Shown here piece by piece: positions 22,081 to 60,299 of a stretch of DNA of 64,000 nt (positions are counted from its first letter, which is position 1; each line of letters opens with the position of its first letter). Both the position numbers and the translations under genes were made by a program. The stretch covers positions 268,584,001 to 268,648,000 of the forward strand of contig NC_091469.1 of assembly GCF_036971445.1 (NCBI RefSeq). The letters run 5' to 3'. Source of the DNA: Narcine bancroftii. Taxonomy: Eukaryota. The notes beneath the pieces were generated by a model. The model was not told the DNA's origin. It ran no database searches and worked only from the letters and a program-made list of their open reading frames with translations.

Positions 22081-22099
22081 GTAGGTTCAATATGGTGCC

Positions 22100-25757: not shown

Positions 25758-26099
25758 TGCAGGAGATCGCATCAAACAGGAAATTATGGAAGCATGTAAC
25801 GAGGCTTCGCCTAATGGTTGGGCTGCTTCCAGTCTGATGTGGCGGCCACCCAAGAAGTCTTCCACTCTGATGGACTCTGGAGATCGGCCCTTCTCTCTTG
25901 AGTTGGCCCCAAGGGATACATGGTCGTCAGGGACTGCACGACGTATGAGATGGCCATCAAAGGCCCGAAGACCCACTACATGAGGCTCCTGAATGACGTG
26001 CTGGGGAGTCACTGACTCTCACAATGTCAGCAATGACCGGGTGAATCGCTGGATGACTATGTCCTGGAACTATGGACACTAATGAGAAAGTGCTACTAT

Positions 26100-26205
26100 T
26101 TCTGATGTAATATTGTAATCATACCATTTTAATTTCTTAAAAATTTTCTTTAAATGTTATTCTCTATTGTATTCATGTTATAAAATTTTAAATAGTCTTC
26201 AAAAA
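26100..26205 (+). mobile_element. Short poly(A)-tailed (L1-type) insertion in Gypsy 2 gag
   Basis: AT-rich insert ending in an A-run, with 13-bp TSD AAAGTGCTACTAT (26087-26099 and 26206-26218). Confidence 0.8.
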
Positions 26206-28457: not shown

Positions 28458-29120
28458 TGTTGTTTGGGTTTATGTGGGTCCCACTGGTTAAGAAGCAGAC
28501 CAAAGTTGAGGCACAAAGCACACGTTTATTTCAGGGATGCAAACGGGACAACAGGGTAGATATCTCAGGCAAACCTCCACACACACACACACGCAGTACA
28601 GAGGGGGTAAATATACACTTCAGATAACGAGGGAGAAACCGACAGAGACTGGGGGAAATTACATACACATTCAACAATCAAGATCAAGGTGATACTATGT
28701 GCCCCCACCCCTTGACTGGTACAGACACGGCTCTTGCTACCTGGCCTTGACTCACCCCAACACAGTGTGAGGAGTCCAGAGGCAGAACAAAGGGGTGTAT
28801 GGCCCTTTATAGTTCTGCAGGCAGTACTAGGGAGACCAATCACTCGGGGCAGTCTGGGCCCTGTTGGCTGCTATGGCCAATGGCTTGAAGCCAAGTGCAG
28901 GGGCTCAGCAGGGGTGATTCACCTGGGCCAATTGGGTGAAGGTCAGGGCTGAGTCTGGGCGGGCTGCCTGGACTTCAACACCTGGTGATTTAGGTGGGCC
29001 AATCGTAAGGGTCACCTTGATGGCTTGGGGTGAGTCTTTGACCTTGATTGACAGGTAGTGTGTCCTCCGAACAGGAGCGCAGCAGCACCACCAGGTGGTG
29101 GACTCTGCCTCTCCATTACA
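28458..29120 (-). mobile_element. Solo LTR (663 bp) inserted in Gypsy 2 pol
   Basis: TG...CA termini and TSD TGTAT/TATAT. It splits the peptide TYNYEIVY|RPG. TATA and AATAAA lie on the minus strand. Confidence 0.85.
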
Positions 29121-33539: not shown

Positions 33540-33830
33540 CGCTGGGTGGACTCCGTCCCCTCGCGTCTCCGCGGGCCGCAGCTTTCCCCCGCCCATTTGA
33601 CGGCGAAATTGAAAGCAAGGCGGAAAGGGGAGGCCGGGCGTTGGCCCAAGACGGAAAAAGCCCTCGGCCCCGCGATCGGAGACCATGGGCCGCTGCCGGG
33701 CCGGGGACCGGCCGCGGCTTCTGCTGCTGTTGGTCCTGGCGGGGCTCTCAGGTAGGAAGCGGAGGGAAGGGCCGAACGTCCCCGGGGCCGGGCGGAAGTG
33801 CTGGGGGCACGTAGGGAGGTGGAGGGGGTG
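33540..33830 (+). promoter_or_regulatory. CpG-island promoter/first-exon region of gene 2
   Basis: Dense CpG/GC segment in AT-rich surroundings, with GC-box-like CCCCGCCC (~33587) and GGGCGG, surrounding a strong Kozak ATG (GAGACCATGG). Confidence 0.75.
33685..33751 (+). CDS. NCR3LG1: Gene 2 exon 1, signal peptide
   Basis: MGRCRAGDRPRLLLLLVLAGLS with Kozak ACCATGG and donor CAG|GTAGGA, phase 1. Too short for the ORF track. Confidence 0.85.
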
Positions 33831-36800: not shown

Positions 36801-39800
36801 AGTATTTTTAATTAAAGCCCAATGGAGAAACAAATGAAAAAGAGATAGCAAAGAAAAGGTTTCATGATAGAACATGGGGGAATATTTGTGTGAAGGACTT
36901 CAATGAATAGACTATTTTTGAGTTATAGTTTTTTTATGTTAAACAAGATAAATATAAGAATTTTTTTATTATGCACTCTAATGTATATATATTTTTCCAT
37001 TTGTAGAGGGAACGTTGAAGTTGAGAACGAGCAAAGGTCCAGTGGAAGTATTGCTTAACGAAAATGGACTTCTCCATTGTGAAATTGATAAGCTTTACGG
37101 GCTTACATTGAGCTCAAATAATTTAGGCATTTCATGGGTTTTCATCCAGGGAACTGGAAAAAATAATATCTTCACTTATTCTAATGGAGAAATAACAAGT
37201 GTGTGGAAAGAAGCAGAGTTGTCAGAGAACTCCATTCTAAATGGAGACATGTCACTTATGCTAAAAAATGTTACGTTCAAACATTCTGGCAAGTATCAGT
37301 GTGAAGTTGTTATTCCACCAAATGAAAGGGACTCTCTTACAGTAAACCTCGAAGTTTTAGGTAAGGTAATTTTTTTCACACTACTTTGGATTATTTCATA
37401 TCATGGTTATCTTGTTTATGCATTATATTTCAGTGAAAATAGTTTCTGAAACACCATATTGCCAGCATAAAGCCTAAGCATGGAAGCAAAATTCTACATT
37501 TAGTGGGAATAGACCAGTTTCTATGCTGTGTGACCAGATGATTTGCTTTCATATAGTCCTTTTCAATCATTTCAAATGGTGCTGACAGCAGATAACAGAC
37601 CATTTGACTGCACTGATCTATGTTGGTGTTTATGTTCTCACAAACCTCCCATCCTTTTGAAATTTACCCCTGATGAACCATCCACTTATGCCAGTGCATG
37701 CACATCATCACACACTATAAAGCAAATCCAGGCAGATTAGTAACATTGAATCCCTCCTGGACAACCTCAGTGTATTCTACACTCACTTCAAGCAGGAGGT
37801 TGGCGAATTAGAGGTACTCTCCTTTCCTATCTTGAGCTCACCAGCACCCGTGATCACCAATGTACCTGTCAGATAGGCCTTCTGAAGATGTGTCCTCTTG
37901 TGATTGCGTGTTAATTAAACATCTGCTTCAATTTTCAGTTTCTGCAGATTTTCCCACAAGGCCTTTGCAGAAGGACACAATTTTACTTAAAATTATTCAA
38001 ATTATTCAAATTTTGAGTAAAAATTTCATTCCTACCACCAATGTCAAATTCACTGATTTATGTTTTTCAGGTCCTTTTCAATTCTTTTTCAAGTATAGGA
38101 GTCATATGTTCCACAGTCCCTTTTAATACAGTTTTTTCCTCCACGGTACTTCTTTCACCAGCTTCCCTATCAGCTTTAAATCATTGAGCCGATCCAAAAT
38201 ATTAATTTTTGAATACAGCCATTGTGACTTTAATACACCTTTTTTCTTTTGCAGCACAACCCACGGTGACTGTTGTTTCAGAAAAGATTGTGGAAGTTGG
38301 CACTGGTGGAGAGATGACCTTGCGTTGTCAGTTAACTGGCTATTATCCTTGTGAAAGCAATGTGGAATGGATTCAATTAACCCCATCACAAATTGAAACA
38401 AAGTTGGTAACTAATCTATGCATCTCCCCACCAATCAAAAATCCAGACAGAACATGTAATGCAATCGTTGAAGTTAGCTTGGAACCTCGTGTAAAAGACA
38501 TTGGCAGTAGTTATGAATGCCATGTGATGCACAAGACTTTGCCAGAGCCAAATATTGTGAATGCTGAAGTGATTTTGAAAGGTTAGTTGCAGAACTTTTT
38601 AATTTCTTTTTCTTAAAGTTCAAAGTTTTGAACTTTTGCTGGAGTTTTGTAGATTCTTGTTTCCTTTGGAGGGGTGAGTGAAAAAGATTTGGCTCCAGTT
38701 GGTTCTGTCACTCCTTGGGTGACCGATGAGCCAATCTGAGGCTTTAATTGGGGCAGAGGAACAATTTTTGGGGTCGATTTCTGGGAGTGTAAAATGAGAG
38801 GGGATGACATTATTTTCCATCATTTGTACTGAAATTGGATGTGCTCATGGTTCAAGTTTTCAGTGCTATCCAGAATGTTCTTTCTCCAGAATAGGTAATC
38901 AGGCAAAAGGTTCCAGGATTCTTCACGGATATTGCATATTTTCAAGGAGGCTTTGACAACATCTGTGAATCAATTCTGTTGTACAGTCAGAAACCTTGTT
39001 TCATGGCAGCATGAAATAGAATGTCTTTTTCTGGTACGAGGCCAGAATAGGCTTGGGGTGGGATTGTACTGTTTACTTAGGAAACAAGTATGTTCATTTT
39101 AGCAAAGAATAGTTTTGATATTAACATTTCAAAGGCTTTCCAAATGTTGATTAAATGGAGTATTCTTACATATTATTTCAATAGAGCTTTATGCTTGCAC
39201 CTATTCAAGAACTCCTTTCTGTGTGCGCAGATAAATCTAAATACATGTCTATTACTTGTAAGTACTCTGCTAAAGTATTTAGTAGTTTCTTTAAATGATA
39301 GTTGTTTCTATTATTCTATCATTTAATCTGGCATCTAGTACTTTTGATAATTGTGCGACTTTTTTTGAATATCTTATTTAAGTTTCCACATGCATTAATG
39401 TCTAGATACACAAAATATCCCTCATACATCTCAAATTAGAATTACTTAGTATTATATACCCACCACCCCTTCCCCCAAATAATAATAGCCCCAAAGAATG
39501 TAAAAAAACAAAAAGACAAAGGAAGAAACACATCTGATTACTAAAGTTTCAATACATCGTCAAATTTTGCCTTTATAATATTAAACATGTACTAATTCCA
39601 AGAAGTTGACAAGGTTCTTGAGGTTTAGGGGATATCATATAGTACCTACAATATGTAAATATAGGGTCCAAAATTTTAATAAAATACCGTGTTTATTTCT
39701 TAAATTATATGTAATTTTCTCAAGAGAAAATACGAATTTGATTTCCATGTCACTGCTATACATTTTCTTATGACAATGCAATTTGCACGAATTCCTTTTG

Positions 39801-42800: not shown

Positions 42801-45800
42801 TCTTGCCAATCCACACTGACTGGGTCTAGAGGTGAGAAAATCTAGGAACCAATGTGATATTAAACCTAAGAGTTCGCTGATTTGTTTTGAAAGCTTAACA
42901 GTAGTTGATAAAGAGCATCCTTATTTATCCTTTAAGTACCGGTAATCCTATGCGGAAAAAAAAATCTACCTTGGTCACTTTAAGTCTTTTCCCAAACAGG
43001 TTCAGTCTTTTCCTTTATATCAATACCATTTTAATAAATTTTTTTGCACTTTTTTTTTCTTATAACAGAAGCAGAAATACTTATTTCCACACAGTCGATA
43101 ATTGGAAGCATTATTGGAAGCATTTTTATCACTGTATTGTTAACAGCCACAGGAATTCTCATTTACATATGCTACTTTTATAAAGGTAACTCCTAGATAT
43201 ATCGAGAATGAATTTGTAGTGAAAGACTCAAAGGAAATTTAAATTATTTGGGCGGGAACAATAAAAACCTTGGCCTTTTTCAAATTTTATAAACTTCTGT
43301 TTAACTAGTACTGCTCAAAGCCTGTTGCGATTTTGTGATTTTTAAAAAAAAATTATTTCATTTGGAATTATAACATAAAATGTTTAATCTTTCCATTGAA
43401 ATTAATTGTGAATTGTCTAACTATCAAAGATTGTTCATCCCAACTGGGAATAATTTGGAATAATTCATCTTTAAATTTCTGATAATTTTCTTTTATTCTC
43501 AGTTCCACCCAAAGTATCAGATATTCAATTGCCTGATCGAATTGTACACCATGAAGTAGCAGATATTATTTGCCACGTGGCTGGATTCCGACCTGGTGAC
43601 ATTGATCTCAGCTGGTATTTGCAAAGGAATGGCAAGGACGAGCAATTAATTCATAAAGACAAAAAAGCATTTTTAGGTTCTATGCTTTGCAAACAAAATG
43701 AGCCAAGTGAAATGAGTACAAATGAGAATCATTGGAAAGTCCTCAGAAGTTTCCAGACATATGAAAATTTGACACACAGCTTTTCCAGCACTCTTAAGGT
43801 TTTTCCTGATGTTATGACAGACAATAACGCAAGAATCATATGCAGAGTGACGCATCCAGCAGGTTCTGAAGAAAGATGCAGCTTTTTAGCTGTCCATGGA
43901 AGTAAGTATTTTACAAATCAAAATAAGGACTTTACAGGGTTGGAAGACCATGTGGTCATTTCGTATTCCATTTGCCAAAATTTTTGATTTCCAGTCCCAT
44001 TTTTTGACTTGGATCATTTGTGCTGCAAATCCTTATGGTAAATCCTAGAAGTTACAATCTTGAGTTTTTAAGTGTATAGTGTTGAGAATTTTTACTTGGA
44101 CCAGCATATTATGCAAAGGACATATGATCCCCTCCATAATGTTTGGGATAAAGGCATTTTTTTTCTTTATTTTTTCCGGTTTTAAATTTGTAATCAAATA
44201 CTACACGTGATTAATGTGCACATTCCAGATTTTATTCAAGGTTATTTGTGTATATTTAGATTTGATCATATAGAAAATTGCAGCACTTTTTATACATAGT
44301 TCCCCCAATTCAGAGCACCATAATGTTTGGGACATTTGGCTTCTCGGGTATTTGTGATTACTCATTGCTTTATTGGTGCAGGCAAAGAAGAAAAGGGAGC
44401 TGGGCTTGCTTTTAAGCTTTTGATCACCTTTGGAATCTGCAATTGCCATTTCTCAAGAGTTGTTCCAATGAAAGTCAAATAAGCTATTATGAGGCTGAAA
44501 AACAAGAATAAAAGAGTAAAATACATTGCTTAAACCCTATACCAAAAGTAACAATTTGGAACTTCATTATGAAGAAAAAGCATACTGGTGAGCTCAGTGA
44601 TCACAAAGGAACTGGTAGGCCAAGGAAGACCTCCACTGGTGATGACAGAAAAATGAAGAAAAATCCCCACATGCCTGTCTGACAGATCAGAAACACTCTT
44701 CAGGAGGCAAGTGGGGATGTGTCAACGACTACCATCTGCAGAAGTCTTCATGAACAGAAATACAGAGGCTATACTGCAAGATGCAAACCACTAATTAGCC
44801 ACAGAAACAGGATGCCCACATTACAGTTGGCCAAGAACTGTTTAAAAGAGCTGCAGAATTCTGGAAAAAGGTCCTAAAGACAGATGAGACCAAGATTAAA
44901 CTGGATCAGAGTGATGGAAGAGCAGTGTGGAGGCATAAAGGAACTCCCCAAGATCCAAAGCATACTAGCTCCTTTGTGAAATGTGGTGGGGGTATTATGT
45001 CCTGGGCAAGAATAAGCTGCCACAGGTATGGGCATGCTTGTCTTCATTAATGAGTAACTGCTGATGGCAGTAGCAAAATGAATGATGAGGTGTATAGAAA
45101 CATCTGCTCAAGTTTGATCCAATGCCTCCAAACTCATTTTTGACAGTGCTTCATCCCACAGCAAAACAATGATCCCAAACACACTGCTAAAGCAACAAAG
45201 GGGTTTTTCAAAGCTAAAATTTTTGAATGGCCAAGCCAGTCACGCAATCTAAATCTAACTGACTATGTATTCCATATGCTGAAGAGAAAACTTAAGTGGA
45301 CGATCCCCTGTATGAAGCAGGAACTGAAGATGGCTGCAGTAGAGGCCTGGAAGAGCATCACCAGAGATGATACTCAGCATCTCAAATGTCTATGAATCAA
45401 AAACTTCAATCAGTCACTGCATGCAATGGATATGCAACAAGGATCTAAGCATGACAACTTCCATTGCTATGACATACCATTGCTATGTCCCAAATATTAT
45501 GGTGCCCTGAAATGAGGACACAAATATATAAAAAGTGCTGAAATTCCTAAGTGGTCAAGCCAAAAAGTATACTGTTACAGGCCATGTTAGAATAGTTATG
45601 GGTAAAATATGCCTTTAAAAGAGATAGATTGTGGGGGATTTAGTTTAGGCTTGTACTTCACAAACAGAGTAACACTTCAAAAAAGACATCTCATTTAACG
45701 TGCAAGAGCTTTGCTGAAGTGAGACATTGTGTCACCAGTGACTTTGCAGAGGCAATGGAACTGCTTTGGAAAGAACTTCACAAAGAGGTGCAAATGAAAC

Positions 45801-45915
45801 AAAGTCCAGACTTGGAAACTGAAAAGATCTTTCAAAGATTGGGTTTGGAGCTCTGTAAGAAATCGTATGGTTTTTACAAGCAAAGAGGAAAAACAGACAG
45901 ATGATTTCTTTTTTG

Positions 45916-45951
<36 letters not shown>

Positions 45952-48900
45952 CATTTTACAGTAGCAGTTGAGGCTGCAAAATGGCAAGCTGATAGGCTTG
46001 TTGAAAAAAACCATTTTGAAGACGGGTTGTGAGTTCTTGAGTTTGGCCTGTTCAAAATCCTTGTAGTCCTTACAAGAGGAAATGGCTGGCTAGAGTATTT
46101 CTCCTGAAATAAGAGAAACTCTGTGGTGACCTGGAAGAAGAGGTTATCATTTGGAAAACCCATGATGAGGCAAGTTTCTTCGGCAAGACACTCAGTTTGT
46201 ACGTATCCAATGAGCAACAAATTTCTCTCTGAAACCAACAAGAACCTTCCTGAATGGTAACCATTTAACTTTAAACGTCAGAGTCTGGTGAAGGTTCATA
46301 AATGTTAAATTTTGAATTGCCTGATACTGGTGAACTTGGAGAAGTGAAAAATGAATGATTGGACAGTGAAACAGAGAACTTTCCTGAACATATACACATT
46401 ACATACATGAGCGCTTAGAATTAGAAGGGGGTTAAGTTAGGTTAGATTAAGTTAATAGCAATAAGTTTAAGATTGATCTTGTTATTATGTTTAAAGAAAA
46501 TTTAAAGTAACTTTTGGTTAAGTAACCATTGTCTTGGTGAATTTCTATTGCTGCTGCGTTTTGGAGTCCTCTGGGCTCGTAACAATACAAATAATCTTGA
46601 ATAAAATCTGGAATGTTCTCTTTACACACATGTGAATTGTTTGATTACAATTTAAAACTGTGGAGCACAGGGGGAAAATAAAGGGGAAAAAGTATCTTTT
46701 GGTGGGCACTATATGTAAAATTATCTTTTTTAATTTAAAGTTTCCATAATGTATCATTGAGTTATATGAAGTAGATATTTTGCATAGTTTACCGTTCATT
46801 ATCTTATAGATGGGTTGGTTTTAGGTATATCCAATGGAGTAACATTTATTTAAGTGTATTCTTATGTAATTGTGGAACATGTTATAAGGGTTGAATAAAA
46901 GCCACCAAGAAATATTAACAGGAAAAACTGAGGGAACTATCTTTTGAAAAGTTTAGTATACAAAAGTAAATCTGCAATGAGGATTATAGGTTCTGAAGGA
47001 TTAGGAAGGAACTGTGGCAACATACCAGAAATCCTTGGAGCTCTTCCTCCCCCCCACCCCTACCCTCTTTTTTTTAAAAAAAGCTGCTGGTTTGCAAAGT
47101 TCAGCACAAGTTTTATGTGACATCTTTTACAAGACCTAAAGCACTTTACAGACAGAGGAAAAATTTTGAGATTTAGTCAGTTACAAAGTTGGGGACAGGC
47201 TGTGGAATGAAGGAAAATTAATGGAATTAAGATACAGTTAAGGTCAAGAATTATTTGAATGTGGGCTGACTGTTCAGTCTTGTGCCAATTTTATGACTCT
47301 CTTTGATGGGATTACCTTTCTGCTAATTCGTCCTGAAACATTGAGCTGGGCTATTGGATCAGAAAATTGTTGCAAGTGCAAGAGTAATTACGGATACTTC
47401 AAGAGTTAGGATGGGTTAAAATAAAGAGGATCAGACAAGTAACAAAGAGAATTGACATGCTTCAAACCTAATATATACCTTAATTTAATTGCTGAGTTGT
47501 AAATGACCATTCATTTTCCAGATAATGTATGATGAATATGCTATGTCATTTTTCTTGAGTTTGTGAATGTTTAAACTGATTTTACTTTTTTTCTCCCTCT
47601 TTAGTTGCTCCTAAGTTGGCTAAAATAATTAGACCCCCTGTTATACTTCATAACCGTTCTTTGATGCTGATATATCCAATAAAATTGTTCAAGCCAAATC
47701 TTCTAAATATCAAATGGTATAAAATAATAAATGGAGTAAAATCGCTTTTGGTGGAGTATAAAACAGGAAGTAAACTAGATTTCACTGTTGACCAGTATTC
47801 CCATTGTGTGGATGAGTTTAGTTCTGATAATGATACCTACAGTGTCAACAGCATGTTGATCTTTATCGCAACAATCAAAGAAGATGATGGCAAAGAATAT
47901 CTCTGTGAAGTGAATCACGATGCTATGGAAAATTCAGTGGAAGAGAAGGTTAAACTGGAAGTAAAAGGTAAATCAAACTCAGATTTCTTGATCGTGCAAT
48001 CTTCATGAAAATCGAGCCATTTCCCCCCTTTGTTCACATTTTATATTTCAATAAAATGACCTATTTTTGCTACTTTTAGTGACTCATCATTACCTAAGTA
48101 ATCATCAGGACTGATAGTTGGGTGGCTTCCCTGTATTATCAGCAGTTTTGGTCATCCAGCTGGCCATTCAGCTAGAAAAAGTTCAGAAAAGATCAAAGCA
48201 ATGTTATGGAGATGTAGGCTAGTGTAATCAGGAAAGGCTGGGACTTGTCTCCTCGGAGCATAGATCACCAAGGGAGAATCTTGTAGAGGTAAGGGGCATG
48301 AATAAAGTAAATAATCATTGTCTTTATGGCACTGCAGAGGAGTCTAAAACTAGAGGACAGATTTAAGGCAAGAATGGAAAGATTTGAAATGGATCTGTGG
48401 GTCTCCTATTTCACATAGAGGATGGTAGGTAGGTGGTATGAGCTGTCAGAAGAAGTGGTAGTGGCAATGACATTTGGAATGTTTAAAAGACATTTAGACA
48501 AGTAGGAACTATTGAGCAGGATAAGGGTGTAACATTGGCAAATTGGATGAGTTTAGATAGTCAACTTGGTTGCCTTGGACAAGTTGGGCTAAAGGATTTA
48601 TTTCTATGCGGACCAAGTTGACTATCTGAGCTCATCTCATTTGTGATGTGAACCCCTGTTGATTAAGAAATGTGTACCGATGATTACAGCTTCCACTGTG
48701 TGGAATTTTTGATGTTTTAAAAAAAGAGGAAACATTAATTCAATCTTTTAGGAGTGTATTTAAATTACATAAAAGGTACTAAATTTTGACTGAAACACAA
48801 AAGTCTGCAGAAACTGTGTTTGTAGTAAAAGCACAAAAAATGCTGGAGGAACTCGCAGGGTCCATAGGAAGTAAAGATATATAACCGACGTTTCAGACCT

Positions 48901-51900
48901 GAGCCCTTCTTCAAGGTATAAGTAAAAAGTAAGCAGGTGTCTGAATTGGTGAGGAGGTGAGAATTGACTTAGGTTGTTGTTTGGAGCTCTCTGGAAGCAG
49001 AGCAAGGGGAAAAGGAAGAGAGAGAGAGAACTAGGGAAAAAGAAGGAAAAGGGGGAGAGGGAGAGGAAAGGAGACAGAAGGAAAAGGGGAGAAAGGAAAG
49101 GAGATACAGGGAAAAATGGGGAAGGGGGGGGGGGCTAATGGAAACCAGAGAAATTGATGTTAATGCCATCTGGAGAGTGCCCAGATGGAATACAAGGTGC
49201 TGTTCCTCCAATTTGTTGGGTGGTCTCAGTCTGGCAAATTTGACAACAATCTGTCTAAAATTTCCATAATTCTATACACATATAGTTATATTGAACCTTA
49301 TGATTCAAATTCTTTTGATTCAGCAAATGAAACATAAACCAAATTGCCTTTTTATTTTTGTGACAAGCAAGTTTATTGAACTAAAAGTGATATTCATTAG
49401 TTTTATATCCTGCCAGTGTGATTCTGCATCTGAAACAAGAATGTATGATATTAAGACATGTTATCATTGAGAAAGTCCTGTTAAGCAGCACTCTCCACCT
49501 CAAAAGGCTATAATTAGTTCATAAGTTTTCTTGGAGGCAACTCCATCAGAACATGCAAAGATTTTGACTTCTGGACCTTCTTGCCTTAATTTTGTGTGAA
49601 CAACTGTTAAAATATGTTTTATTTCTAATCTTTTTTTTTCTGATGAAAGCACATTACATTTTCTGGGATTTTGTTCGATGTGCACAAATTGTTTCTGCAT
49701 TTTTGAAATTTAAATTTTAAAACATTTTATTTACAACATGGTAGTGGCCGATTCCGGCTATTGAAACCTGTGCAGCCCAATTACACCCAATTAACAAACA
49801 ATCCTGACATTTTGGAGGGTGGGAGGAAACCAGAGAACCTGGACAAAACCCAGACAAGGAGAATGTACAAACTCCTTACAGACAGCACCGGACTCAAACC
49901 CAAGTTGCTGGTGCTGTAACAGCATCCCACTAACTGCTACACTAGCCATGCCCCCTGTAGTAATGCAGTAAAATAATTGGTGTGAAAAACTTGTGGATAT
50001 TTTTTTCTTCCTCCTTTGTGTTTTGCTTTCCTGTTCCAATATAATCTTGTGCTGCATGCAGATTTGGATTGCCCAATATTTAGGGAAAATATTCATAGGA
50101 TATGTTAATTAGTACACTAAAATACTTTTGAACATCGTCATATTTTTACACAGCTTTGGCATTTTCTGTCCTTGGATTTAGATTCAAACTACATTCCAGA
50201 TTGATCCCTAAATTCAAGTAGAATATTAACAATGCATTGTTGGAGATGTTGTAGTGGTCCGCCCATTAGCAAGTGAACTGGAACACAAAATGGTGGACTA
50301 ACACGATGAGCATACACACTAACTGCCCTCACTGGCCAGAAGCCTGCTTGGCAGGAACCATGGTCAATCAAAGACCAGCATGCCAGTGACGTCATATCTG
50401 CCCGCAGTGGCAGGAATACCCGACCCAGTGGCGGGAAGCTGGGCTTATAGAAGCAGGGCTGGGGAGATCAATAAATCAGTCTTGACTTCACTTACACCCG
50501 TGTGTGCGTCGTTCTTCTCTTGCTCTACAGTAGTGCCTTGCTACAATGTCATATTTTGAGTATTGTAGTTGCACTAGGGATGCAGTAAGTGAAAGAACCA
50601 CACAGTTGAAAGAGTTGAACCAACTGACTTTAATAGAACTCTTGCACACGCTGAAATCCCTCGGAACCCGATGATACTTGTGACTGCCAGGGCATTTATG
50701 ACATCAGCCGCTAGGCAGTGGGCTTTCTCTTCACCCAGAGCTCTTACCCGCAACTCCATGAGCCGGTTCATTTGTTGCGTGGGCAGGCCAGCACAGTATG
50801 AAGTAAAATGGAGGATTGATTTCTGTGTTCAGGAGAATGTTAACAGTTCTCCAATGTATTCATGAATGGAATAAAGTGCTACATTTTTTTTTTATTTTGC
50901 AGCATCTCCTTCACTTGATACTATCCTGTGTGAACCAGTGAACCCTAAAATTGAAAAAGAATTGATTCTATCTTGTAAAGTTCATTCATTTTATCCAAAA
51001 AGCATTACTGTCCAATGGTTCAAAGATGAGGAACCTATAAAGGATTTCACAATATCTGACATAGTTCAGAATCACAAGGATAATTTGTTTGAATTAACCA
51101 CTACTTGCACAATAATTCCAACGTTATCAGACTTGCAGAGTAAATATCAATGTCGGGTTACACACAAGAGCCTGAGATCTCCAAGCTTTGTGGAATATGT
51201 TCTTGAAAATTTAGGTATGTTCACTCTCCAATATTATACTATAATTTAAAAATAAATATTTTTAGTATATAATTACATTGTTTTCTTATTTCATAATTTT
51301 TATTTACTCAACTTTCTTTTGTCATTCCTCTTAACCTGCGTGATTATGTTTGATTGTTTACTGTTTCTGGTCAGAAAAACATTGTTGGCCAGCGTCCTCC
51401 AGTCATTGCTGGAGAGGCTGTGGCTGGGGTTTCCACACGCAGTCATACTACAAGGAAGGCAACCAGAATGAAGGCAGGAACAGAAGATCCTTTGGTTATG
51501 CAGAAGAAGCAGGAATCTGTTGAGCCAGAATCTCTTCCAATTGAAAAGATTCTTGTGAATCTTGAATCTAAATTATCTTATACAATGCAGGGATTATCCA
51601 AGATTATGACTGAACTTGGTACTAGGTTTAATACCCTGGTGAAAATACATTCTCAACAGATGGCTGAGTTTGGAGCTTTTAAGCTTGAAGTGAGAGATAA
51701 ATTTAATTTGTGTGAAGAAGATATAGACGAAATACGGGATCAAGTTTTTGATGTGACCAAAATGGTTGAAGACTTACAAATTCAAAATAAAAATTTGGTG
51801 AAAAAGATTGATTATTTGGAAAACCAATCCAGATGGAACAATATAAAGATTATTGGTTTGCCGGAAGGTATGGAGGGACCAGACCCAAGAAAATTTTTTA

Positions 51901-54900
51901 CTGAATGGATTCCGCAGGCGCTGGGTCAAGAACATTTCCCGGAAGGTATAATACTGGAACGTGCTCACAGAGCTTTGCGTAGAAGACCTATTTCAGGTCA
52001 AAGTCCAAGACCTGTTTTGGTTCGTTGCTTGAATTATTACGACAGAGAAATAATTTTACGAGTGGCTATTAGAAATGCACAACAGAGAAAATCACCCTTG
52101 ATGATTCAAAATAATCGAGTTTTCTTCTATGCGGATTTGAGTCAAGAGGTTATGTTCCAACGATGGGAATTCAACCCTGCTAAAGAGTTGTTGTGGAAGA
52201 AAGGTTATAAGGCAACCTTTAGATATCCAGCTGTTTTGAAGGTTTTTCAAGATGGTTACCAACCAAAGTTCTTTGATTCTCCAAAGGAAGCTATAGCATT
52301 TGCTCAAGAGTTGCCAATCACTCAGTTTCAACAGAGATATAGTCCGCCGCGATCTCCAAGGAGACAAGAGATGGAAGAAAAGAGCCGTGCTCCAAGAAGG
52401 AATGGTCGTAATGGTGACTCGGCAGTTGGAGCTGATTAAAAGAAGAGTTGTCCTTTTTTTTCTAATGCTTTTTTTCCAAAAAAAGGGATATTAAATAATG
52501 ATGATGTTAGTTTAAGATGAAGTGAGAGTTGGGGGAGAGAACTGGATAGGCACTATTTTCTGAAAGTCATCTGCTACGTGTGAGTTATCTCACACCCATT
52601 TTTTTTTGGGGAGTTACCGCATTGCGCGGTTTAGACGGGATGGAGTATTTTTAACCTCCTACCCGTTTTTTTTTCTTTTTTTTTTGTATTATTAGATTAA
52701 AGAGTGAAGGGTTTTTTTTTGTTTAAATAATAAAAATTTATTTTATTTTTCCTTTTTTTTTCTTGCAAAAGATATTTGATATAAGTGGTTATTCTATATT
52801 TGTGTATTATCAGTTAAGATCTTTTGTAAAACAGGTATGCGGTCGTCAAATGGATTTACTGTCTGAAACTGATTTTGAGAAATATGTGCTCTCATTTCCA
52901 AAAAAGAGTTATATATCAGGTTTGTATCGTATTTTGTTGGAAAGTGAAAGTAAAATAGATTGGGATAAAGATAAAATGAAATGGGAAAAAGATTTAAGTT
53001 TAACAATAACTGAAGAAGATTGGTCTGAAATCTGCCGTAATAGTGTTCGAAAATTGATTAATGCTAGATTGGCGATGATTAATTATAGTTTTATACATCA
53101 ATTATATTTAACACCCGAAAAATTTAAAAAATTTGGTTTTAGTAAGTCAGATCTTTGTTTTCATTGTGATCAGGTTTCTGGTACTTTTTTACATGCTGTT
53201 TGGTTGTGTGATCGGTTACAACAATTTTGGAAAGGTATTCAATCTGTATTTAATAATCTATAGAATCTTCATATTGCATTAGACCCTGATATATTTTTAT
53301 TAGGGAATATGCAACCGTTGATTGATTTAGAATTAGATAATTACCAGATCTCTTTTATTTACTTAGCGCTGGCAGTGGCCAAGAAATGTATAGCGATTAC
53401 TTGGAAGAATAGAAATGTAATGTCTTTAGATAGGTGGTAATCAGAGATGAAGTTTTGTTTGGTTATGGAAAGAATATCTTTTTCTATACAAGATAAGATG
53501 TCTTTTTATGAGTTAAAGTCGACCCCATTTATTGATTATATACAATTTAAATAAGTTTGAATTAATCATTTTTTTTAAACTTTTTTTATTATATATTTTT
53601 TCTATATACAATGTTTTCTTTTTTTCTTTCTTTTTTCTTTTTTTTTTAGTTTTTTTTTATTAGTTGGTTTTTTTTGTTTAAGTTCTTTTTGTTTTTTCAT
53701 ATATATTCTTATATAATAAAAATTTTTTGGATTAATAATTAATACTTAATTAATATTTTTTTGATTTTTATATATAGCGATCTTTTTTTTTAAGATATAT
53801 ATTTTTAATTTTTTTAAAATTATACTAATAGTATTAATTCATCACTCTTTATCGTGGGGGTGAGGGTTTAGGGGTTAAAAATAGTTTTTTTTTAGTCTTA
53901 GTTTTTAGTTGTTAGGGGGAGATGCCGAGATTGGTATTGTATTAACTATGTTACTTTGTACTTGTATTATTTTATTTTGTATTTTTTCTGTATGTGAATT
54001 ACTTACTTTCTTTATATGTTAAAATTAATAAATAAAGTTTCAAAAAAAAAAGAAAAACATTGTTGAGTTTAAATGCTCCAGTCCTCATTCAATAAGTCAC
54101 ACAACCCCTTGGTGAAGATAGGAGCCAATGTTCAGCCAGTGGAGTGTCCCAGTTGTTCCCCGTCCACAGCAGCTGTTTGAATAAAGTTGTGTTTTAATAA
54201 AATGGTAGCGCCCAAGATGAAGAGTCAGCTGATGCTGCTGGGGTAACTCTCCCTAAAAGCCAGCAGTGAAAGGAAGTTGTGACCGGGATGTACTGTTAGT
54301 GACCGGGACTGCACTGTTAGTGACCGAGACTGCACTGTTAGTGACCGGGACTGCACTGTTAGTGTAATGACTAGCACAACACTGTTTCAGTGCCAGTTAC
54401 TGGAGTTCGAATTTAAATTTTGTAAGTTATGGGAATTACCTGATAAAAGTGAACTTTACATAATTAAATACAATATTGATTTAAAAAAAAATAAATTACA
54501 TTTTGCACTGTCTTTTAAACTGTGTATTCTTAATGCACATGTAGGCATTGAAACGGTGATTCCCAATCAACCAGAAAATTTGCATATGCGACATCCGTGA
54601 TCCCCATAGGTGGCGGTTTTACTGTACTTGCCAAGACTTAATTTACACCTGCAGATACTTTTAAACTACATATCATGATTTAGGAACTCTTGGAAGACTT
54701 TGGGTTACCTAGATTTTAGGGTCACTTTTGCAATGTAGAGACATGGAGATATAAAATGCCTGTAATCAGAATTAATTTTAGAGAACATCTATGTTTAATG
54801 CGAGTGGAAGAAGAGAGCATAATACAAATTGGATTTAATTGTAACTGATCACTTTCAGGTGGGTGGATTTGGTGAGAGAAGGAACTTCAAAAATATTATT

Positions 54901-57900
54901 TCCCAAAAGAATTATATTTACTAAATACTACCCAATTAAATAACAAGTCCTATACTTGTACCTTTTATATGGTGATGTGACAGACATTGAAGCATCCAAA
55001 TTATAATGGTATTTATTTCAATTATTTGAAATCAGATGAAAGTATCTTGAGCCATATCTGAAAATCCTAAAACAGCAATGCAATGGAAGTTCAAGTTTAA
55101 TGCACCATGATGGATTAATTATTTTATTTGAAGCTATATGAAGTTTATTTCATGGTGCCTTGATTTAGAAAGACTCTGCAGCTTAAAATGTAATATAATT
55201 GATTAAAAGAGGGATTTTGGGAACAAAGTTTTTTGTGGAGTTTATATTAAATGACAGGCTTAACAGGAGACCTGTATGCATCTTTGTGTGAATTTAAATT
55301 GAGGTCTAAATATTTATAGTTTATATTGTGGTATTTTGGTTACTTTATGAACATTGAATTCATATGGAACCAATTTTTTTGTGGAACATGTATCTGAAAC
55401 AAAATTTAAGCTTCATCTCAACTTTTTTTATTCCTCTTTATTACAGCATCTTCCCCCAAAATAAATGAAATTACATGTGATCCTGTCCAGCCTGAAATAG
55501 GGAAAGAATTGACTTTGACCTGTGAGATAAAGGAGTTTTATCCAGAGGATATTCAAATCCATTGGTTCAGAGATTGTGTGAGAATAGATGAAAATCAAAA
55601 TCTTGGAATCATCAGTGAAACATTAAGTATTGAACATGGTCTGTACCACAAAATCACCAAATTAACCTGGATTCCAAGCACTGATGATCAACAAGCTGAA
55701 TACAAAGTTGAGGTTTGCCATTCAAAGTCTTCTGCCAATCTACTGAAACAAAGCTTTCAGCTATTTCTTAAAGGTAAGTTAAAATGGAGTAGATTTTAAG
55801 ACCTGTACCATTGAGAATGATTGGAGTTTTATAATATTATACAGGTAACTCCACATCACAGGAGAAGTGTAGTGGTTCTGTTCTAGAAAATGCTTCATAT
55901 TGCAATTTTCTATAATGCAAAGCAGCATCAAATGTGCATGTGTCAAGAAACGAGAGTTGAAAGAATAATTTTATATTTATTTATTTATGTACTTTCACAT
56001 AAATTTGGTGATAGCAAATCTTACTCCTAATCTCCAGTTTTTGGGTAGAGAATTCTATGCAGGTACTTACCACCATCAAAAGTATGACCCATGTAAAAGT
56101 TGACACCCACCCCCCCTCAAAATTTGACATGAAAAATCAGTCCCAAAAACTCAATTATTGATGTGTATATACTGTAAGGTGGAAGCTGCATATTCTGCAG
56201 TGATGAGCCCATCTGACCCTGCAATATATCAACATCATCTGAAAGGCTTTACTTTGAGTATAATCAAATATTGTTAAATGGATGTACTAACACTCATCTA
56301 TTGGACAAGGATAAGACAGACAAGGCACCCAATACAAATATAAATTTCCTTCAACACCAGCTACCTGCAAGTGCTGCTTCCCATGTGAATAGCACACATA
56401 AAGTACCGTGATATGTTGAATGTATTTTAATATCACCTCCCAAACCTCAGTCACCGAGATTGACAACACCAGGTTCCCGGAGCATGTTGTGGTCATCTGA
56501 AATGGGCATCCACTGCAATTGTTTCATTCTATTGGGTTTGCCACAGGTGAATTCCACTCAGCTGCACCTGTCTGACATCCAACCGGGGCAGTGGGTTTCA
56601 TTCTGCATTTAGGTCTCAGGCTGGGTATCCTCAAAGCATAATCCCCGGGCATCTGACAGCCAGTGACAATTTGACAGATGTAAAAGTCCTTTAAATTTGT
56701 CCAAAATGTACATCAATTTTAAATAAATTGTAATGAAAAAAGTAAATCATTAAAACACACACTAAAACATGAACAAATAATATTAAAATAAAATGAAGTC
56801 CACAATTTTCTTTTTCACTGGATGGTTTATTTCAATTGAATGGGGTTGCCTCTTGTACATTGATTCTCCTGGCATACTTGAAGGTGAAATGAGAAGTATA
56901 TTGGATTTTATTTGCATCTTGTATTTCTCCACCATTTGAGTCAACTAGGTGCCCAGCAATAAAGCAGGTAATCATGTATGTTAGATTCAGGGCAGATTAG
57001 AAGTTCAGGACTTCTGGACAACTGACAGCCTGATTCCTGAAGTTCCCAATAGCCCAACCCTAACTGAGTCAAAATTTTGTCACCTTCTGCTTAACAGCAT
57101 GTGGGAGTGTGTTTATGCTTTACTTCAGTTGATCAAAGGTGAGTAAAGATTGATTAACTATCTCTGTCAACCATGTCCACTCTCTAAGGATAGTTCTCAA
57201 AAAACCTTGGAAATACACTACGGCTTAATTAAGTCTTTTATGGCTATTATTTTTTTTCATTATAGGCGCACCCAAATTTTCGGACTTCAAAATGGAGCCA
57301 AAGGTCCCATTGTATGGCCGTCCTTTATCTGTATCTTCTTCAGTCTATGATATCTTAAATAAAAATATTTCTGTTCAATGGTACAAGGGATCGCAGCTTA
57401 TAAAAAGTGGAGTAATGAATTCAGATTTAGTGCATACCCATGTGAACACTTACAAGATAAAGAGTTGCCTTCAATTTTTAGTGACTGCAGAAGACTTTGA
57501 AAGGGAGTTGATCCTTGTGTATAAAGATATTTCTAAAAACGAAGAATTCAGGAGACGTATTCAGCTGCCCCTGAGAGGTGAGTGTATGGCAGATATGCTT
57601 CTTTTAACTGTATATTAAGAATTTATTATTTAACGTTTGCATTGGAAATGCCAAAGATTTTGCAATGTGTACAAGAGAATGCCTTTTGTTCATCACTTTT
57701 CACTAGTTTTTAGAAGAAACTTCTCGTCTTTGGATGTCTAATTCAATGTGGGATTCTCTACAGGAGGACTCATATCTAATAACAGAAGAACCAACAGGGT
57801 AGTTCCTCAGCTAGTCAGATTGAATAGTATTCACACACACTCACTCATTCTGTAAAGAATAAACATTGGAGGTATTATGTAGAAAGCAAATAATAATTAG

Positions 57901-60299
57901 AGTCTTAGAGTTATACAGCCTAGACACAACTGGCCCTTCATCTGATCATGCCCCTGCTGTATTCACACTAATCTCATTTGGCCACATTAGGACCATATCC
58001 TTGTCTACTTGATTCCATGGCCTCTTTTGGCAGGACAACCCAGTTAACAACCACTCTCCTCTGTAGATTAGTTTATACATTGTGTATTAAGCAGAAAACA
58101 ATTAAAATTTTCCTTTTACAATCTTTTTATTGTTTAACACACAAAAAATCCATAAATATATAAAATGCGAGGTTATAGATTATAAATCAAATAAATATAC
58201 ATTATAAACAAACAGTAATTGATTCCCCATGGCTCTATTGTTAAAATAATAAAAACAGTCGAAGAAAAAAATCTTATCTATTCTAAACTATCTAACTAAC
58301 CTAAATTAAATTATCTAATCCCCTCACCTAATAGAAGTTGGGATGCCTTAAAACAATAAAATTCAGTAATAAACAAAAAAAATGCTCCTTTACATAAATG
58401 GAATTAGTTAACATGAAAGGGAAAAACAAAAATGAAACATTATATTAAAGCAGGCTTAAGAATCACGAAAACATTTGCCACATACTATCAAATTTAATAT
58501 CGGTATCAGTTATAGCACATCTAATTTCTAAATTTAAACAAGCTAAAGTTTGGCATAAAAAAAAACAATGAAAATTTTGCTGTATCATTTTTCAATTAGA
58601 AAGTTTTTAGGCTTCTCAAATGAACTTCTTAAGCCCAAAAAGGATGTTTAAAATGAACACAATCTTTTTAATGACTCAACTTGCAGCCATTTCAAATTGG
58701 GTAATTAGCTTGATTTTTGCAGCTGGATGGTTATATGAGCACAGACTTTATTGGCATCGTTAAAGGATATCACTGCAAAAACATTTAGAGTTCCGAGGTA
58801 TGAACGCCAGAGATTGCCGCCAGTTTAATATACCTACAGTAAATTCTCTGATACATGTGTGAAAAATCATTTATTGCTGGTTTTCAATGAATATTGCTTA
58901 TGAAAAATTAAAAATGATTTCATTTATACATTTATACATTGTTTTAGAACATAAACAAAGTACAGGTATACCCTGTATAACATGATTTTGAAAAGTGTGG
59001 GTTTTGATACAGTATGACACAGTTTGAAATATCTGACCCGCAGTTTAAAATTTGCAATGTTAAAGTTTTATTGTTGTTGCTACTTAAACCACCTCCTAAC
59101 ACTTTGCAAGGCTCTAGTTAAAAATATTTGAAATCTAGGCACTGAGCTGTGGAATTGAGAGAGTTAAGTGGCTGTGTTGAAAGTTATTGCTGTCCTCGGG
59201 GTGATCGGGCTTCCTGCATTATCCCACAGCACGCTGCCTTACACTGATAGGAATCTGTTTTTTCTTCATCTCTGCTCTGATGTGGCAGATCAGCGAGTTT
59301 GCAAGCAACTGAACAATGCCAGTTTGTATGGAGGGGAACCCCTGGAATTTGCTGTGGAATAGAGAGAGTTAAGTGGCTGTGTTTTAAGTTATTGCTGTCC
59401 CCGCTGTGATCAGGCTCCCTGCACTATCCCATGGTAGTACCAATTTAGTGAAAGTCTCATGTGGGCGATTTGACGCAAATCTACATTTTACCCCCTCCAT
59501 AAATCTTCGTCCGCGAAGCCAAGCCAAAGATATGAGACAAATACTTGCTTCAATTAAACTATGTTCACGTTGCCAATAAAGATCAATTTTATATATCCCT
59601 TTTATAGGATTGAACCATATCAAAGTGCATTGTAATAATGCTTTGAACAGTGTGACTTTCCATAGCACTGAACTTGTTTGGAATGCATTAACCATGTTAT
59701 ACAGTGTATGCCTGTACAGTAAAACCCATGTTATCCAGAATTCAAGCAACTTGCAAAAAAAAAAATCACAGAAAATAAATAAGTAAAAAAACATGAAAGT
59801 TTAAAATTGGCACGCTTTGCAATTAGTTTGTGCAGTTTCGAGCATCCGGAAAATTCACTTATCTAGCATCTATCAATCCCAATGGGAGCCAGACACCAGG
59901 GGTTTTACTACATTCAACTTAAACAGTTATTGATAAAATTCTTCAACAATTGATTACATTTAATGTTTGTGACTTCATTTTTCCACAGCGGTCACTCCCA
60001 AGGTATCAGAAATCAAGTCCAACCCTGTTCAGCCTGAAATAGATGGAAATGCCACTCTTTCTTGTAGAATTTCAGAGTTTGCTCCCATGGATATAAACGT
60101 TATTTGGAGCAAGGGATGTAAGATATACAAAGTTGAGGAAATCATCGTAGAAGTGCCGAAAATTGATGAAACTGGGCTGTACTCTACAATGACAAGACTG
60201 CCGATCATCATAAATGAGGATTCAGAAGAATATACTTGTGAAATTGAACATGAGAAGACCAATGATATTGTTGAGAAAAAATTTACCTTGAAGATTTAG
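33685..60299 (+). CDS. NCR3LG1: Gene 2: B7-H6 (NCR3LG1)-like receptor, leader-IgV-IgC1-TM-6x cytoplasmic IgC1, 10 exons, 962 aa
   Basis: join(33685-33751,37007-37360,38255-38581,43069-43185,43503-43901,47605-47967,50903-51214,55447-55773,57266-57577,59989-60299) = 2889 nt, open throughout, all introns GT-AG phase 1. The V/C1 pair resembles human B7-H6 as recalled (EGTLKL/EGDLKV, LGISW/MGITW, YQCEVVIPP/YRCEVVVTP, PPIKNPD/PTIKNMD). Confidence 0.85.
34365..34718. mobile_element. MITE with 16-bp terminal inverted repeats
   Basis: TAGCTGCTTTCAGGTG...CACCTGAAAGCGGCTA with internal repeats of CACCTGAA(AG). GC-rich insert inside the CR1. Confidence 0.7.
35345..35560. mobile_element. hAT-type MITE
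   Basis: CAGGGGCAGACAACC...GGTTGCCAACCCCTG termini with 8-bp TSD GTATAGAA/GCATAGAA. Confidence 0.85.
37007..37360 (+). CDS. NCR3LG1: Gene 2 exon 2, extracellular IgV domain (B7-H6-like)
   Basis: ttgtag acceptor and G|gtaagg donor. Motifs LLHCEI...LGISW...GDMSLMLKNV...SGKYQCEVVIPP. Confidence 0.93.
38255..38581 (+). CDS. NCR3LG1: Gene 2 exon 3, extracellular IgC1 domain
   Basis: gcag acceptor and G|gttagt donor. Motifs LRCQLTGYYP..VEW...IKNPDRTCN...SYECHVMHKTL. Confidence 0.93.
39361..41278 (-). mobile_element. Internally deleted L1 retaining both ends, with a nested solo LTR
   Basis: Endonuclease remnants (LGGDFNFCLDP, YSRIDIFL, ILSDHSP), an ORF2 C-terminal remnant, a T-run at the left end, and TSD ATTGTGCGACT/ATTGTGTGACT (39350-39360 and 41279-41289). 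Confidence 0.75.
40539..40819 (+). mobile_element. Solo LTR related to the Gypsy 1 LTRs
   Basis: TGTGGTG...CACCATA termini. Shares TCAATCAGCCGACCTGAAT and AATAAAGCCTGTTGTACAGTCTT with the Gypsy 1 LTR sense strand. TSD GTACC/GTATC. Confidence 0.85.
41598..42043 (+). mobile_element. RTE 3' fragment inserted into a Rex1/Babar-like LINE (about 41410-42920, minus)
   Basis: Matches 25295-25750 and ends in AAGCCAAGCCAAAGAAAAG. The host LINE continues on both sides (compare the uninterrupted junction at 6960-6990). Confidence 0.9.
43069..43185 (+). CDS. NCR3LG1: Gene 2 exon 4, transmembrane segment
   Basis: Long polypyrimidine tract with acag acceptor and AAG|gtaac donor, phase 1/1. Translates as EAEILISTQSIIGSIIGSIFITVLLTATGILIYICYFYK, a frame not shown in the ORF track. 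Confidence 0.9.
43503..43901 (+). CDS. Gene 2 exon 5, post-TM IgC1 domain 1
   Basis: ctcag acceptor and A|gtaagt donor. VPPKVSDI...IICHVAGFRPGDIDLSWY...IICRVTHP, with a long insertion after the C strand. Confidence 0.9.
44122..46713 (+). mobile_element. Decayed Tc1-family transposon with IR/DR-type ends; right end interrupted by a solo LTR
   Basis: Direct repeats CCATAATGTTTGGGA (~44135 and ~44318) are mirrored by ATGTCCCAAATATTATGG (~45485). Transposase remnants (TDETKI, QQNNDPKH, EWPSQS) at about 44460-45445. Ends approximate. Confidence 0.85.
45573..46584 (+). mobile_element. Solo LTR of about 1 kb
   Basis: TGTTAC...GTAACA inverted termini with 4-bp TSD ATAC and an internal (GA)n/G run. 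Confidence 0.88.
47605..47967 (+). CDS. Gene 2 exon 6, post-TM IgC1 domain 2 (first Cys replaced by Tyr)
   Basis: ttag acceptor and G|gtaaat donor. APKLAKI...LIYPIKLFKPNLLNIKWYK...TYSVNSML...EYLCEVNH. Confidence 0.9.
48130..48610 (+). mobile_element. Old CR1 3' fragment
   Basis: Degenerate CR1 3' region (CTAGAAAAAGTTCAGAAAAGAT..., TCTAAAACTAGAGG..., TTTAAAAGACATTTAGACAAG). Boundaries approximate. Confidence 0.6.
48790..49235 (-). mobile_element. Penelope-like element remnant with degenerate hammerhead motif
   Basis: Peptide EEQHLVFHLGTL, a pyrimidine-rich tract, then CCTTGAAGAAGGGCTCAGGTCTGAAACGTCGG on the minus strand. Confidence 0.65.
49720..49950 (-). mobile_element. tRNA-derived SINE (V-SINE/HE1-like)
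   Basis: GGGAGGAAACCAGAGAACCTGG..AAAACCC..GAGAATGTACAAACTCCTTACAGACAG core. B-box-like GGGTTTGAGTCC on the minus strand. Confidence 0.75.
50250..50545 (+). mobile_element. Solo LTR
   Basis: TGTAG...CTACA termini, TATA-like element and AATAAA, TSD ATGT. Confidence 0.85.
50564..50795 (-). mobile_element. Solo LTR adjacent to the previous one
   Basis: TGTAG...GCACA termini with TSD GTAT. Orientation inferred. Confidence 0.65.
50903..51214 (+). CDS. Gene 2 exon 7, post-TM IgC1 domain 3
   Basis: gcag acceptor and G|gtatgt donor. LSCKVHSFYPKSITVQWFK...KYQCRVTHKSL. Confidence 0.92.
51388..54050 (+). mobile_element. L1 derivative: open ORF1, spacer and only the C-terminal end of ORF2 (EN and RT missing)
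   Basis: ORF1 is open to 52439 (LENQSRWNNIKIIGLPEG, FFYADLS, RYPAVLK). ORF2 tail from 52763 (CFHCDQ..HAVWLC). AATAAA plus poly(A), and a 15-bp TSD AGAAAAACATTGTTG (51373-51387 and 54051-54065). Confidence 0.92.
54279..54364. repeat. Minisatellite, 4 x 21 bp
   Basis: GTGACCGGGACTGCACTGTTA repeated head to tail with minor variants. Confidence 0.92.
55447..55773 (+). CDS. Gene 2 exon 8, post-TM IgC1 domain 4 (second Cys replaced by Val)
   Basis: tacag acceptor and G|gtaagt donor. LTCEIKEFYPEDIQIHWF...GLYHKITKL...EYKVEVCH. Confidence 0.92.
57266..57577 (+). CDS. Gene 2 exon 9, post-TM Ig-like domain 5 (both canonical Cys lost)
   Basis: tatag acceptor and G|gtgagt donor. APKFSDFKMEPKVPLYG..LSVSSSVYD...SVQWYK...ELILVYK...IQLPLR, aligning with gene 1 exon C. 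Confidence 0.87.
59146..59432. repeat. Imperfect direct duplication of about 85 bp
   Basis: GCTGTGGAAT.GAGAGAGTTAAGTGGCTGTGTT..AAGTTATTGCTGTCC occurs at about 59146 and 59351. Confidence 0.85.
59486..59530 (+). mobile_element. RTE extreme 3'-end stub
   Basis: TTTTACCCCCTCCATAAATCTTCGTCCGCGAAGCCAAGCCAAAGA, identical to 25706-25750. Confidence 0.9.
59714..59910. mobile_element. Tc1/mariner-type MITE
   Basis: TACAGTAAAACCC...GGGGTTTTACTA termini. A related left end occurs at about 30910. Confidence 0.6.
59989..60299 (+). CDS. Gene 2 exon 10, terminal post-TM IgC1 domain 6 with stop codon
   Basis: cacag acceptor. VTPKVSEIK...LSCRISEFAPMDINVIW...GLYSTMTRL...YTCEIEH...VEKKFTLKI*. Confidence 0.92.

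What the first reader, a model, noticed from the sequence alone, without database searches (positions are those of the whole stretch)
43503..60299. Disulphide cysteines are lost only in post-TM domains, consistent with a cytosolic location
Seen: both pre-TM domains keep the B- and F-strand Cys. Post-TM domains of gene 2 read C/C, Y/C, C/C, C/V, S/L, C/C, and gene 1 reads C/C, C/V, C/F, V/C. The core Trp is kept in all ten, the F/Y-x-P motif in most, and reading frames stay intact. Inference: selection on the disulphide is relaxed in a reducing compartment while the fold is maintained. This supports the topology independently and offers natural disulphide-free C1 scaffolds.
Basis: partly seen in the sequence, partly recalled or inferred. 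Interest (0 to 1): 0.7.

Follow-up and report, generated by a model that had tools for sequence, protein, structure and literature searches.

The report
B7-H6 tail domains shed disulphide cysteines
In this ray immune gene, a relative of the killer-cell ligand B7-H6, half of the antibody-type domains that follow the membrane anchor have swapped the cysteines of their disulphide bridge for oily core residues in a fixed, ancient pattern, which likely marks them as folded domains working inside the cell.

Summary
Observation confirmed residue by residue; TM-to-D5 splicing is seen in four contig sets. The gene is one of three tandem signal-V-C1-TM-(C1)x6-7 B7-H6 co-orthologues beside KCNJ11. Replacements are hydrophobic, frames are intact from chimaera to rays, and the cysteine-free D5 models as a C1 fold (pLDDT 95), so this is not decay. 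Corrections: loss is not 'only' post-TM (about 5% of pre-TM C1 domains, including a paralogue in this genome); it is mostly a few ancient position-specific events (D2/D3 keep both cysteines, D4 never does); tree-corrected event rate is only about 3-fold higher; gene 1 has six post-TM domains. Sequon depletion, extra free cysteines and positive-inside charge agree with a cytosolic tail, untested experimentally. This scan already noted the architecture in a skate and a shark; cysteine loss in cytosolic Ig folds is known from titin. dN/dS could not be run.

The parts
33685..33751 (+). Gene 2 leader (signal peptide) coding exon, phase 1
   Evidence: Sequence, donor at 33752, N-terminus of P0001/P0170; signal peptide judged by eye, no predictor run
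37007..37360 (+). Gene 2 V-set exon, pre-TM, C/C (codons 37078, 37300)
38255..38581 (+). Gene 2 C1-set exon, pre-TM, C/C (38326, 38518) plus three extra cysteines invariant in 14/14 orthologues
43069..43185 (+). Gene 2 single transmembrane exon
   Evidence: hydropathy scan; spliced to D1 in 4/4 runs; present in all 14 orthologues
43503..43901 (+). Post-TM C1 domain D1, C/C (43571, 43841), long variable insertion
47605..47967 (+). Post-TM C1 domain D2, Y/C (TAT at 47673); Cys in the other 16 of 17 aligned proteins
50903..51214 (+). Post-TM C1 domain D3, C/C in 17/17
55447..55773 (+). Post-TM C1 domain D4, C/V; F-strand Cys absent in 17/17, B-strand Cys kept in 17/17
57266..57577 (+). Post-TM C1 domain D5, S/L (both canonical Cys gone); predicted C1 fold
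59989..60299 (+). Post-TM C1 domain D6, C/C, ends at the stop codon
2069..2371 (+). Gene 1 post-TM D3, C/C
3766..4089 (+). Gene 1 post-TM D4, C/V
5815..6123 (+). Gene 1 post-TM D5, C/F
8298..8611 (+). Gene 1 post-TM D6, V/C, ends at the stop codon

Best explanation
The gene encodes a B7-H6-type single-pass membrane protein whose six post-TM C1 domains likely sit in the cytosol, where the B-F disulphide would not be needed, so the two cysteine positions behave as ordinary buried core residues and have been replaced by Val, Ile, Leu, Phe, Tyr or Ser in a position-specific, mostly ancient pattern while the fold is kept. Shown: exon order, splicing TM to D5, the cysteine pattern, its family-wide asymmetry, hydrophobic replacement, long-term conservation. 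Inferred: cytosolic location, absence of disulphides in the domains that keep both cysteines (kept for packing against the core Trp), and function as a monomeric beads-on-a-string scaffold that couples engagement of the V domain by an NKp30-type receptor to unknown cytosolic partners.
For: Topology: leader, V, C1, one TM, then C1 x6; TM-D1-D2-D3-D4-D5 joints in 4/4 runs; TM present in 23 of 25 cluster members, the other two being fragments that start after it. Cysteines: pre-TM 125/132 vs post-TM 239/474 C/C in 109 50%-identity representatives; V domains 111/113; other C1 exons of this genome 45/46 vs cluster post-TM 7/19, p=1.4e-7; two TM-last arrays keep 10/10 and 15/15. Parsimony events per unit tree length 0.045 (V+C1) vs 0.133, p=0.005. 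Independent compartment marks: sequons 1.69x shuffled expectation pre-TM vs 1.09x post-TM; non-canonical Cys 0.58 vs 1.83 per domain; net charge -0.5 before vs +2.4 after the TM, higher after in 86/109. Fold kept: 252/338 replacements are V/L/I/M, which need two base changes from a Cys codon, 3/338 from the polar set D,E,K,R,N,Q,H,P,G; D4/D5 tree lengths 3.0/3.7 vs V 3.3, C1 2.6; D5 model pLDDT 95.5, best folds MHC C1 domains, TM about 0.8. D4 keeps an unpartnered B-Cys in 17/17 and 22/23, showing a Cys can be conserved here without its partner. Outward ABED-face positions are polar (0.63 vs 2.3 hydrophobic of 5). Titin Ig domains carry CysB and CysF in 43% and 42% (PMC5766482, passages).
Against: No experiment places the domains. 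Half of post-TM domains keep both cysteines, D2/D3 almost invariantly. C1-only tree test is borderline (4 vs 37 events, p=0.053) and trees of 100-residue repeats are noisy. Pre-TM losses occur: 7/132, mostly B-Cys to Ser/Ala/Gly, plus an S/C pre-TM C1 on contig C22 of this genome. A sequon in D2 is shared by 11/14 orthologues, as often as the best pre-TM sequons. Raw counts share ancestry, so the tiny Fisher p-values overstate. AlphaFold confidence says nothing on stability. The ABED-face test uses five hand-picked columns and a baseline rich in Ig domains.
Confidence: 0.8

Rival explanations
1. Cytosolic, but the pairs kept in D2 and D3 are redox-active: they form or break a buried disulphide under oxidative or mechanical stress, as in titin, so the barcode separates sensor domains from inert spacers.
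For: D2 33/35 and D3 32/33 C/C in distant relatives against D4 0/23 and D1 1/47; a third Cys on the D3 E strand in 11/14 orthologues; frog-type arrays alternate L/V and C/C domains; titin precedent.
Against: This ray has D2 Cys-to-Tyr in an intact, spliced gene; D4 conserves a lone B-Cys, so packing alone can explain retention; no redox data.
Confidence: 0.12
2. The post-TM domains are partly or wholly luminal/extracellular (TM-skipped secreted form, or reversed insertion) and cysteine loss is of the tolerated kind seen in some extracellular Ig domains.
For: All exons are phase 1, so TM skipping would stay in frame; D2 sequon in 11/14; pre-TM C1 domains also lose a Cys at 5%.
Against: No TM-less form among 23 members spanning C1-D1; TM-D1 joint in 4/4 runs; positive-inside bias, sequon and free-Cys asymmetry; reversed insertion would put the invariant V/C1 disulphide pairs in the cytosol.
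Confidence: 0.05
3. The cysteine-less exons are decaying.
For: D1 evolves fastest (tree length 5.75) and D5's B position toggles among S, Y, C, H, T, Q; a RefSeq isoform drops part of D5.
Against: Open frames and 45-53% identity to chimaera in D4/D5, similar to V (50%); core columns 95-100% hydrophobic at ten of twelve columns checked; replacements dominated by aliphatic residues.
Confidence: 0.03

Closest known systems
Human B7-H6 (NCR3LG1), ligand of NKp30
   Same: Leader-V-C1-TM type I layout (PMC11476788 passage); best PDB match to residues 24-241 (E 5e-19, 6yjp/4zso/3pv6); KCNJ11 tail-to-tail 11 kb past the window (human neighbourhood recalled); a skate orthologue is named NCR3LG1 by NCBI.
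   Different: Human tail is a Gag-like region with ITIM-like and SH2/SH3 motifs; here it is six or seven C1-set domains, and the gene is a tandem triplet plus a distant paralogue.
Titin intracellular Ig (I-set) domains
   Same: Cytosolic tandem Ig array with partial retention of B- and F-strand cysteines (43%, 42%) versus 72% and 60% here.
   Different: I-set, not C1-set; soluble filament, not the tail of a receptor ligand; titin has a B/F/G triad with demonstrated disulphides.
Extracellular C1-set domains (Ig/TCR constant, MHC, beta2-microglobulin, tapasin, HFE)
   Same: Pfam C1-set match, F/Y-x-P, core Trp, predicted fold.
   Different: They keep the pair (45/46 in this genome) and HFE C282Y, a Cys-to-Tyr change, blocks surface expression (PMC5477599 passage; that it lies in the C1 alpha3 domain is recalled); here Cys-to-Tyr sits in an intact gene, and the Ig-type dimer face is polar.

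Membership tests
B7-H6 / NCR3LG1 | Leader-V-C1-TM ectodomain most similar to B7-H6 | tested here: met
B7-H6 / NCR3LG1 | Synteny with KCNJ11 | tested here: met
   Kir6.2-best gene on the minus strand 11 kb past the window; human arrangement recalled; upstream neighbour not checked
B7-H6 / NCR3LG1 | Gag-like cytoplasmic tail (human form) | tested here: not met
   post-TM part is wholly C1 domains up to the stop
B7-H6 / NCR3LG1 | Binds NKp30 | not tested
   no ray NKp30 was fetched and no complex job was run
C1-set Ig domain | Profile match and ABED/GFC fold | tested here: met
   PF07654 best hit for all ten post-TM exons, 9/10 over cut-off; D5 model matches MHC C1 domains; full-length orthologue model shows all-beta domains
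C1-set Ig domain | B-F cysteine pair | tested here: not met
   absent in 6 of 10 post-TM domains in the window, 12 of 19 in the cluster
C1-set Ig domain | Core C-strand Trp | tested here: met
   10/10 in the window; 92% post-TM, 94% pre-TM family-wide; often lost in D1 of relatives
Cytosolic Ig arrays (titin-like) | Demonstrated cytosolic location | not testable with these tools
   only indirect marks: one TM, charge, sequons, free Cys

The most novel reading that the evidence does not exclude
Ancestral B7-H6 carries the first known cytosolic array of C1-set domains, with a cysteine barcode (x, CC, CC, Cx, Cx, xC) conserved across jawed vertebrates in which D2/D3 act as a redox switch on an immune ligand's tail and D1, D4 and D5 are naturally repacked, disulphide-free antibody-constant-type domains (including a Cys-to-Trp/Trp-to-Leu core swap) usable as intracellular scaffolds.
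Probability: 0.15. Interest if true: 0.75.

Novelty: new variant of a known kind. Interest (0 to 1): 0.45.

Why it matters
C1-set domains are the building blocks of antibodies, T-cell receptors and MHC and are treated as secretory-pathway folds that depend on their disulphide. A natural series of several hundred C1 domains, half of them repacked without it, is a ready-made dataset on how the fold survives without the bridge (relevant to intracellular antibody design) and makes the topology and signalling of ancestral B7-H6 directly testable. The principle (cytosolic Ig domains lose cysteines) is known from titin, and the architecture was already noted twice by this scan, which limits the surprise.

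Tried and rejected
dN/dS per exon: not run, no orthologous DNA is reachable with these tools; protein-level rates used instead. A TM-like open stretch at 41041-41127 was rejected as the TM exon: weak donor, absent from the annotated protein and orthologues. The gene counts typed into two Fisher tests were wrong (8/11); corrected to 7/12, which is what is reported. One pre-TM 'loss' (P0106) looks like a fused gene model; it is left in the 7/132. Rows dropped before family counts: proteins without exactly one predicted TM or without domains on both sides (41 of 150 representatives), and domains with a gap at either column (41 post, 2 pre); one stop-broken exon dropped from the 47 baseline exons; 301 of 462 domains could not be assigned to D1-D6. 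No complex job was sent because no binding claim is made. Nine literature searches listed no paper on C1 domains in a B7-H6 tail; the two likeliest papers (PMC3709836, PMC4594805) are not held, so absence from print is not established. PMC12227049, PMC13262535, PMC6514059, PMC3964593, PMC10751288 and PMC2542381 were seen as term passages only and said nothing on this; no supplements were read.

Full report
Observation. The six exons at 43503-60299 have AG/GT ends, are all phase 1 and read open to a stop at the end of the sixth. Pfam C1-set is the best family for all ten post-TM exons in the window, nine over the curated cut-off. Contigs of four runs (one study, guessed RNA) join TM-D1-D2-D3-D4-D5 at GT..AG and show no other letters in the listed exon pieces.

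What the locus is. The TM exon is 43069-43185. My spliced model equals the annotated 962-residue protein of Narcine bancroftii after its leader. Two paralogues lie upstream in tandem: gene 1 (six post-TM domains: C/L, C/C, C/C, C/V, C/F, V/C; the first two are outside the window) and a third gene 61-90 kb before the window (seven: W/I, C/C, C/C, C/M, C/F, V/C, C/V). The V-C1 part matches human B7-H6 best in the PDB, a Kir6.2/KCNJ11 gene lies tail-to-tail just downstream (the human arrangement is recalled), and NCBI names a skate orthologue NCR3LG1. Human B7-H6 has a Gag-like tail instead (PMC11476788, passage). Two earlier notes of this scan describe the same architecture in a skate and a shark.

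Is the asymmetry real? Among 17 cartilaginous-fish proteins (14 gene-2 orthologues, 3 paralogues) V and C1 are C/C in 34 of 34. In the cluster 7 of 19 post-TM domains are C/C versus 6 of 6 pre-TM (p=0.01) and versus 45 of 46 non-redundant C1 exons elsewhere in this genome (p=1.4e-7); the same genome search detected the cluster's own cysteine-less domains, so it is not blind to them. In 109 of 150 representatives at 50% identity with one TM and domains on both sides, 125/132 pre-TM and 239/474 post-TM C1 domains are C/C; 97 proteins have a post-TM loss, 7 a pre-TM loss; V domains are 111/113. Two arrays with a C-terminal TM keep 10/10 and 15/15.

Results against the simple reading. First, 'only' fails: the one baseline exception is the pre-TM C1 (S/C) of a fourth V-C1-TM-C1 paralogue on contig C22, and several frog-type proteins replace the first C1's B-Cys by Ser, Ala or Gly. 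Second, losses share ancestry. Parsimony on trees built without the cysteine columns gives 4 events on pre-TM C1 and 37 on post-TM domains, 0.055 vs 0.133 per unit length, p=0.053; adding V domains gives 0.045 vs 0.133, p=0.005. The enrichment in events is about three-fold and the trees are noisy. Third, loss is position-specific. In distant relatives not used for training, C/C is found in D1 1/47, D2 33/35, D3 32/33, D4 0/23, D5 4/16, D6 0/7 (161 of 462 domains classified). D4-F and D5-F were lost before the three paralogues split; only D2-B here, D1-F in one skate and the labile D5-B are recent. Fourth, a D2 sequon is shared by 11/14 orthologues.

Fold kept, not decay. D4 and D5 are 53% and 45% identical to chimaera, against 50% for V and C1; per-domain tree lengths are 3.0 and 3.7 against 3.3 and 2.6. 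Of 338 replacements 252 are V/L/I/M and 3 fall in the polar set; both cysteine columns are 97-100% hydrophobic after the TM. Where Trp replaces the B-Cys, the C-strand Trp is itself replaced in 15 of 18 domains (7 of 9 proteins), a likely compensating repack. D5, with neither cysteine, models at pLDDT 95.5 and matches MHC C1 domains; a full-length orthologue model gives all-beta post-TM domains at about 70-90. These are predictions, not stability measurements. dN/dS could not be computed.

Compartment marks independent of the disulphide. Sequons are 1.69 times the shuffled expectation before the TM and 1.09 times after it; non-canonical cysteines number 0.58 vs 1.83 per domain; net charge is higher after the TM in 86/109 proteins; none of 23 cluster members spanning C1-D1 lacks the TM.

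Mechanism. Shown: structure, splicing, pattern, asymmetry, conservation. Inferred (about 0.8): a type I protein whose C1 array is cytosolic; without an oxidising compartment each cysteine is selected only as a buried residue. That explains unpartnered conservation (D4 B-Cys 17/17), lability once the partner is gone (D5 B), aliphatic replacement, and tolerance of Cys-to-Tyr in D2, a change type that blocks surface expression of HFE (PMC5477599, passage). The polar ABED face (0.63 vs 2.3 hydrophobic of five positions) suggests monomeric beads rather than Fc-like dimers, i.e. a scaffold for unknown partners. The main open rival is that D2/D3 pairs are redox-active as in titin, where CysB and CysF occur in 43% and 42% of Ig domains and can form buried disulphides (PMC5766482, passages).

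Novelty. Cysteine loss in cytosolic Ig folds is known and Ig domains are regarded as multilocale (PMC2542381, passage). Nine searches found no paper on a C1 array in a B7-H6 tail, but the two most relevant papers are not held. The contribution here is a quantified, conserved cysteine barcode in a C1-set array. Verdict: real, interpretation partly supported, a new variant of a known kind, interest 0.45.

Noticed in passing
G000:C1:268494000-268523100 (61-90 kb upstream of the window): Third tandem paralogue with seven post-TM C1 exons; its D1 has Trp at the B-Cys position and Leu at the core-Trp position.
   Followed up: yes
G000:C22:88537300-88547050 (L097-L098): Fourth, unlinked paralogue V-C1-TM-C1 whose pre-TM C1 reads S/C and whose single detected post-TM domain reads C/F; expression not checked.
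   Followed up: partly
L018:390-1658 (-): KCNJ11 (Kir6.2) gene tail-to-tail with gene 2.
   Followed up: yes
window 38255-38581: Pre-TM C1 has three extra cysteines invariant in 14/14 orthologues (five in all): possible second disulphide and an interchain bond.
   Followed up: no
window 47605-47967: N-x-S/T near the start of D2 is shared by 11/14 orthologues although the domain is predicted cytosolic; not shared by the paralogues.
   Followed up: partly
proteins P0016-P0019, P0064: Frog relatives carry 10-12 post-TM domains alternating cysteine-free (L/V) and C/C; P0064 has seven near-identical W/I repeats.
   Followed up: partly
window 43503-43901 and 59989-60299: Gene-2 orthologues have C/C in D1 (13/14) and D6 (14/14) whereas distant relatives almost never do (1/47, 0/7): retention or regain of cysteines in this lineage is unresolved.
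   Followed up: no
window 57266-57577: RefSeq isoform X2 (P0001) omits the first two-thirds of D5; the contigs support the full exon.
   Followed up: partly
window 41041-41127: Intronic TM-like open stretch with a good acceptor; not part of the annotated protein.
   Followed up: partly
window 10800-30400 and 51350-53560: LINE-like and LTR-retrotransposon-like reading frames fill the intergenic region and one intron (class recognised from recall of the ORF list, not searched).
   Followed up: no
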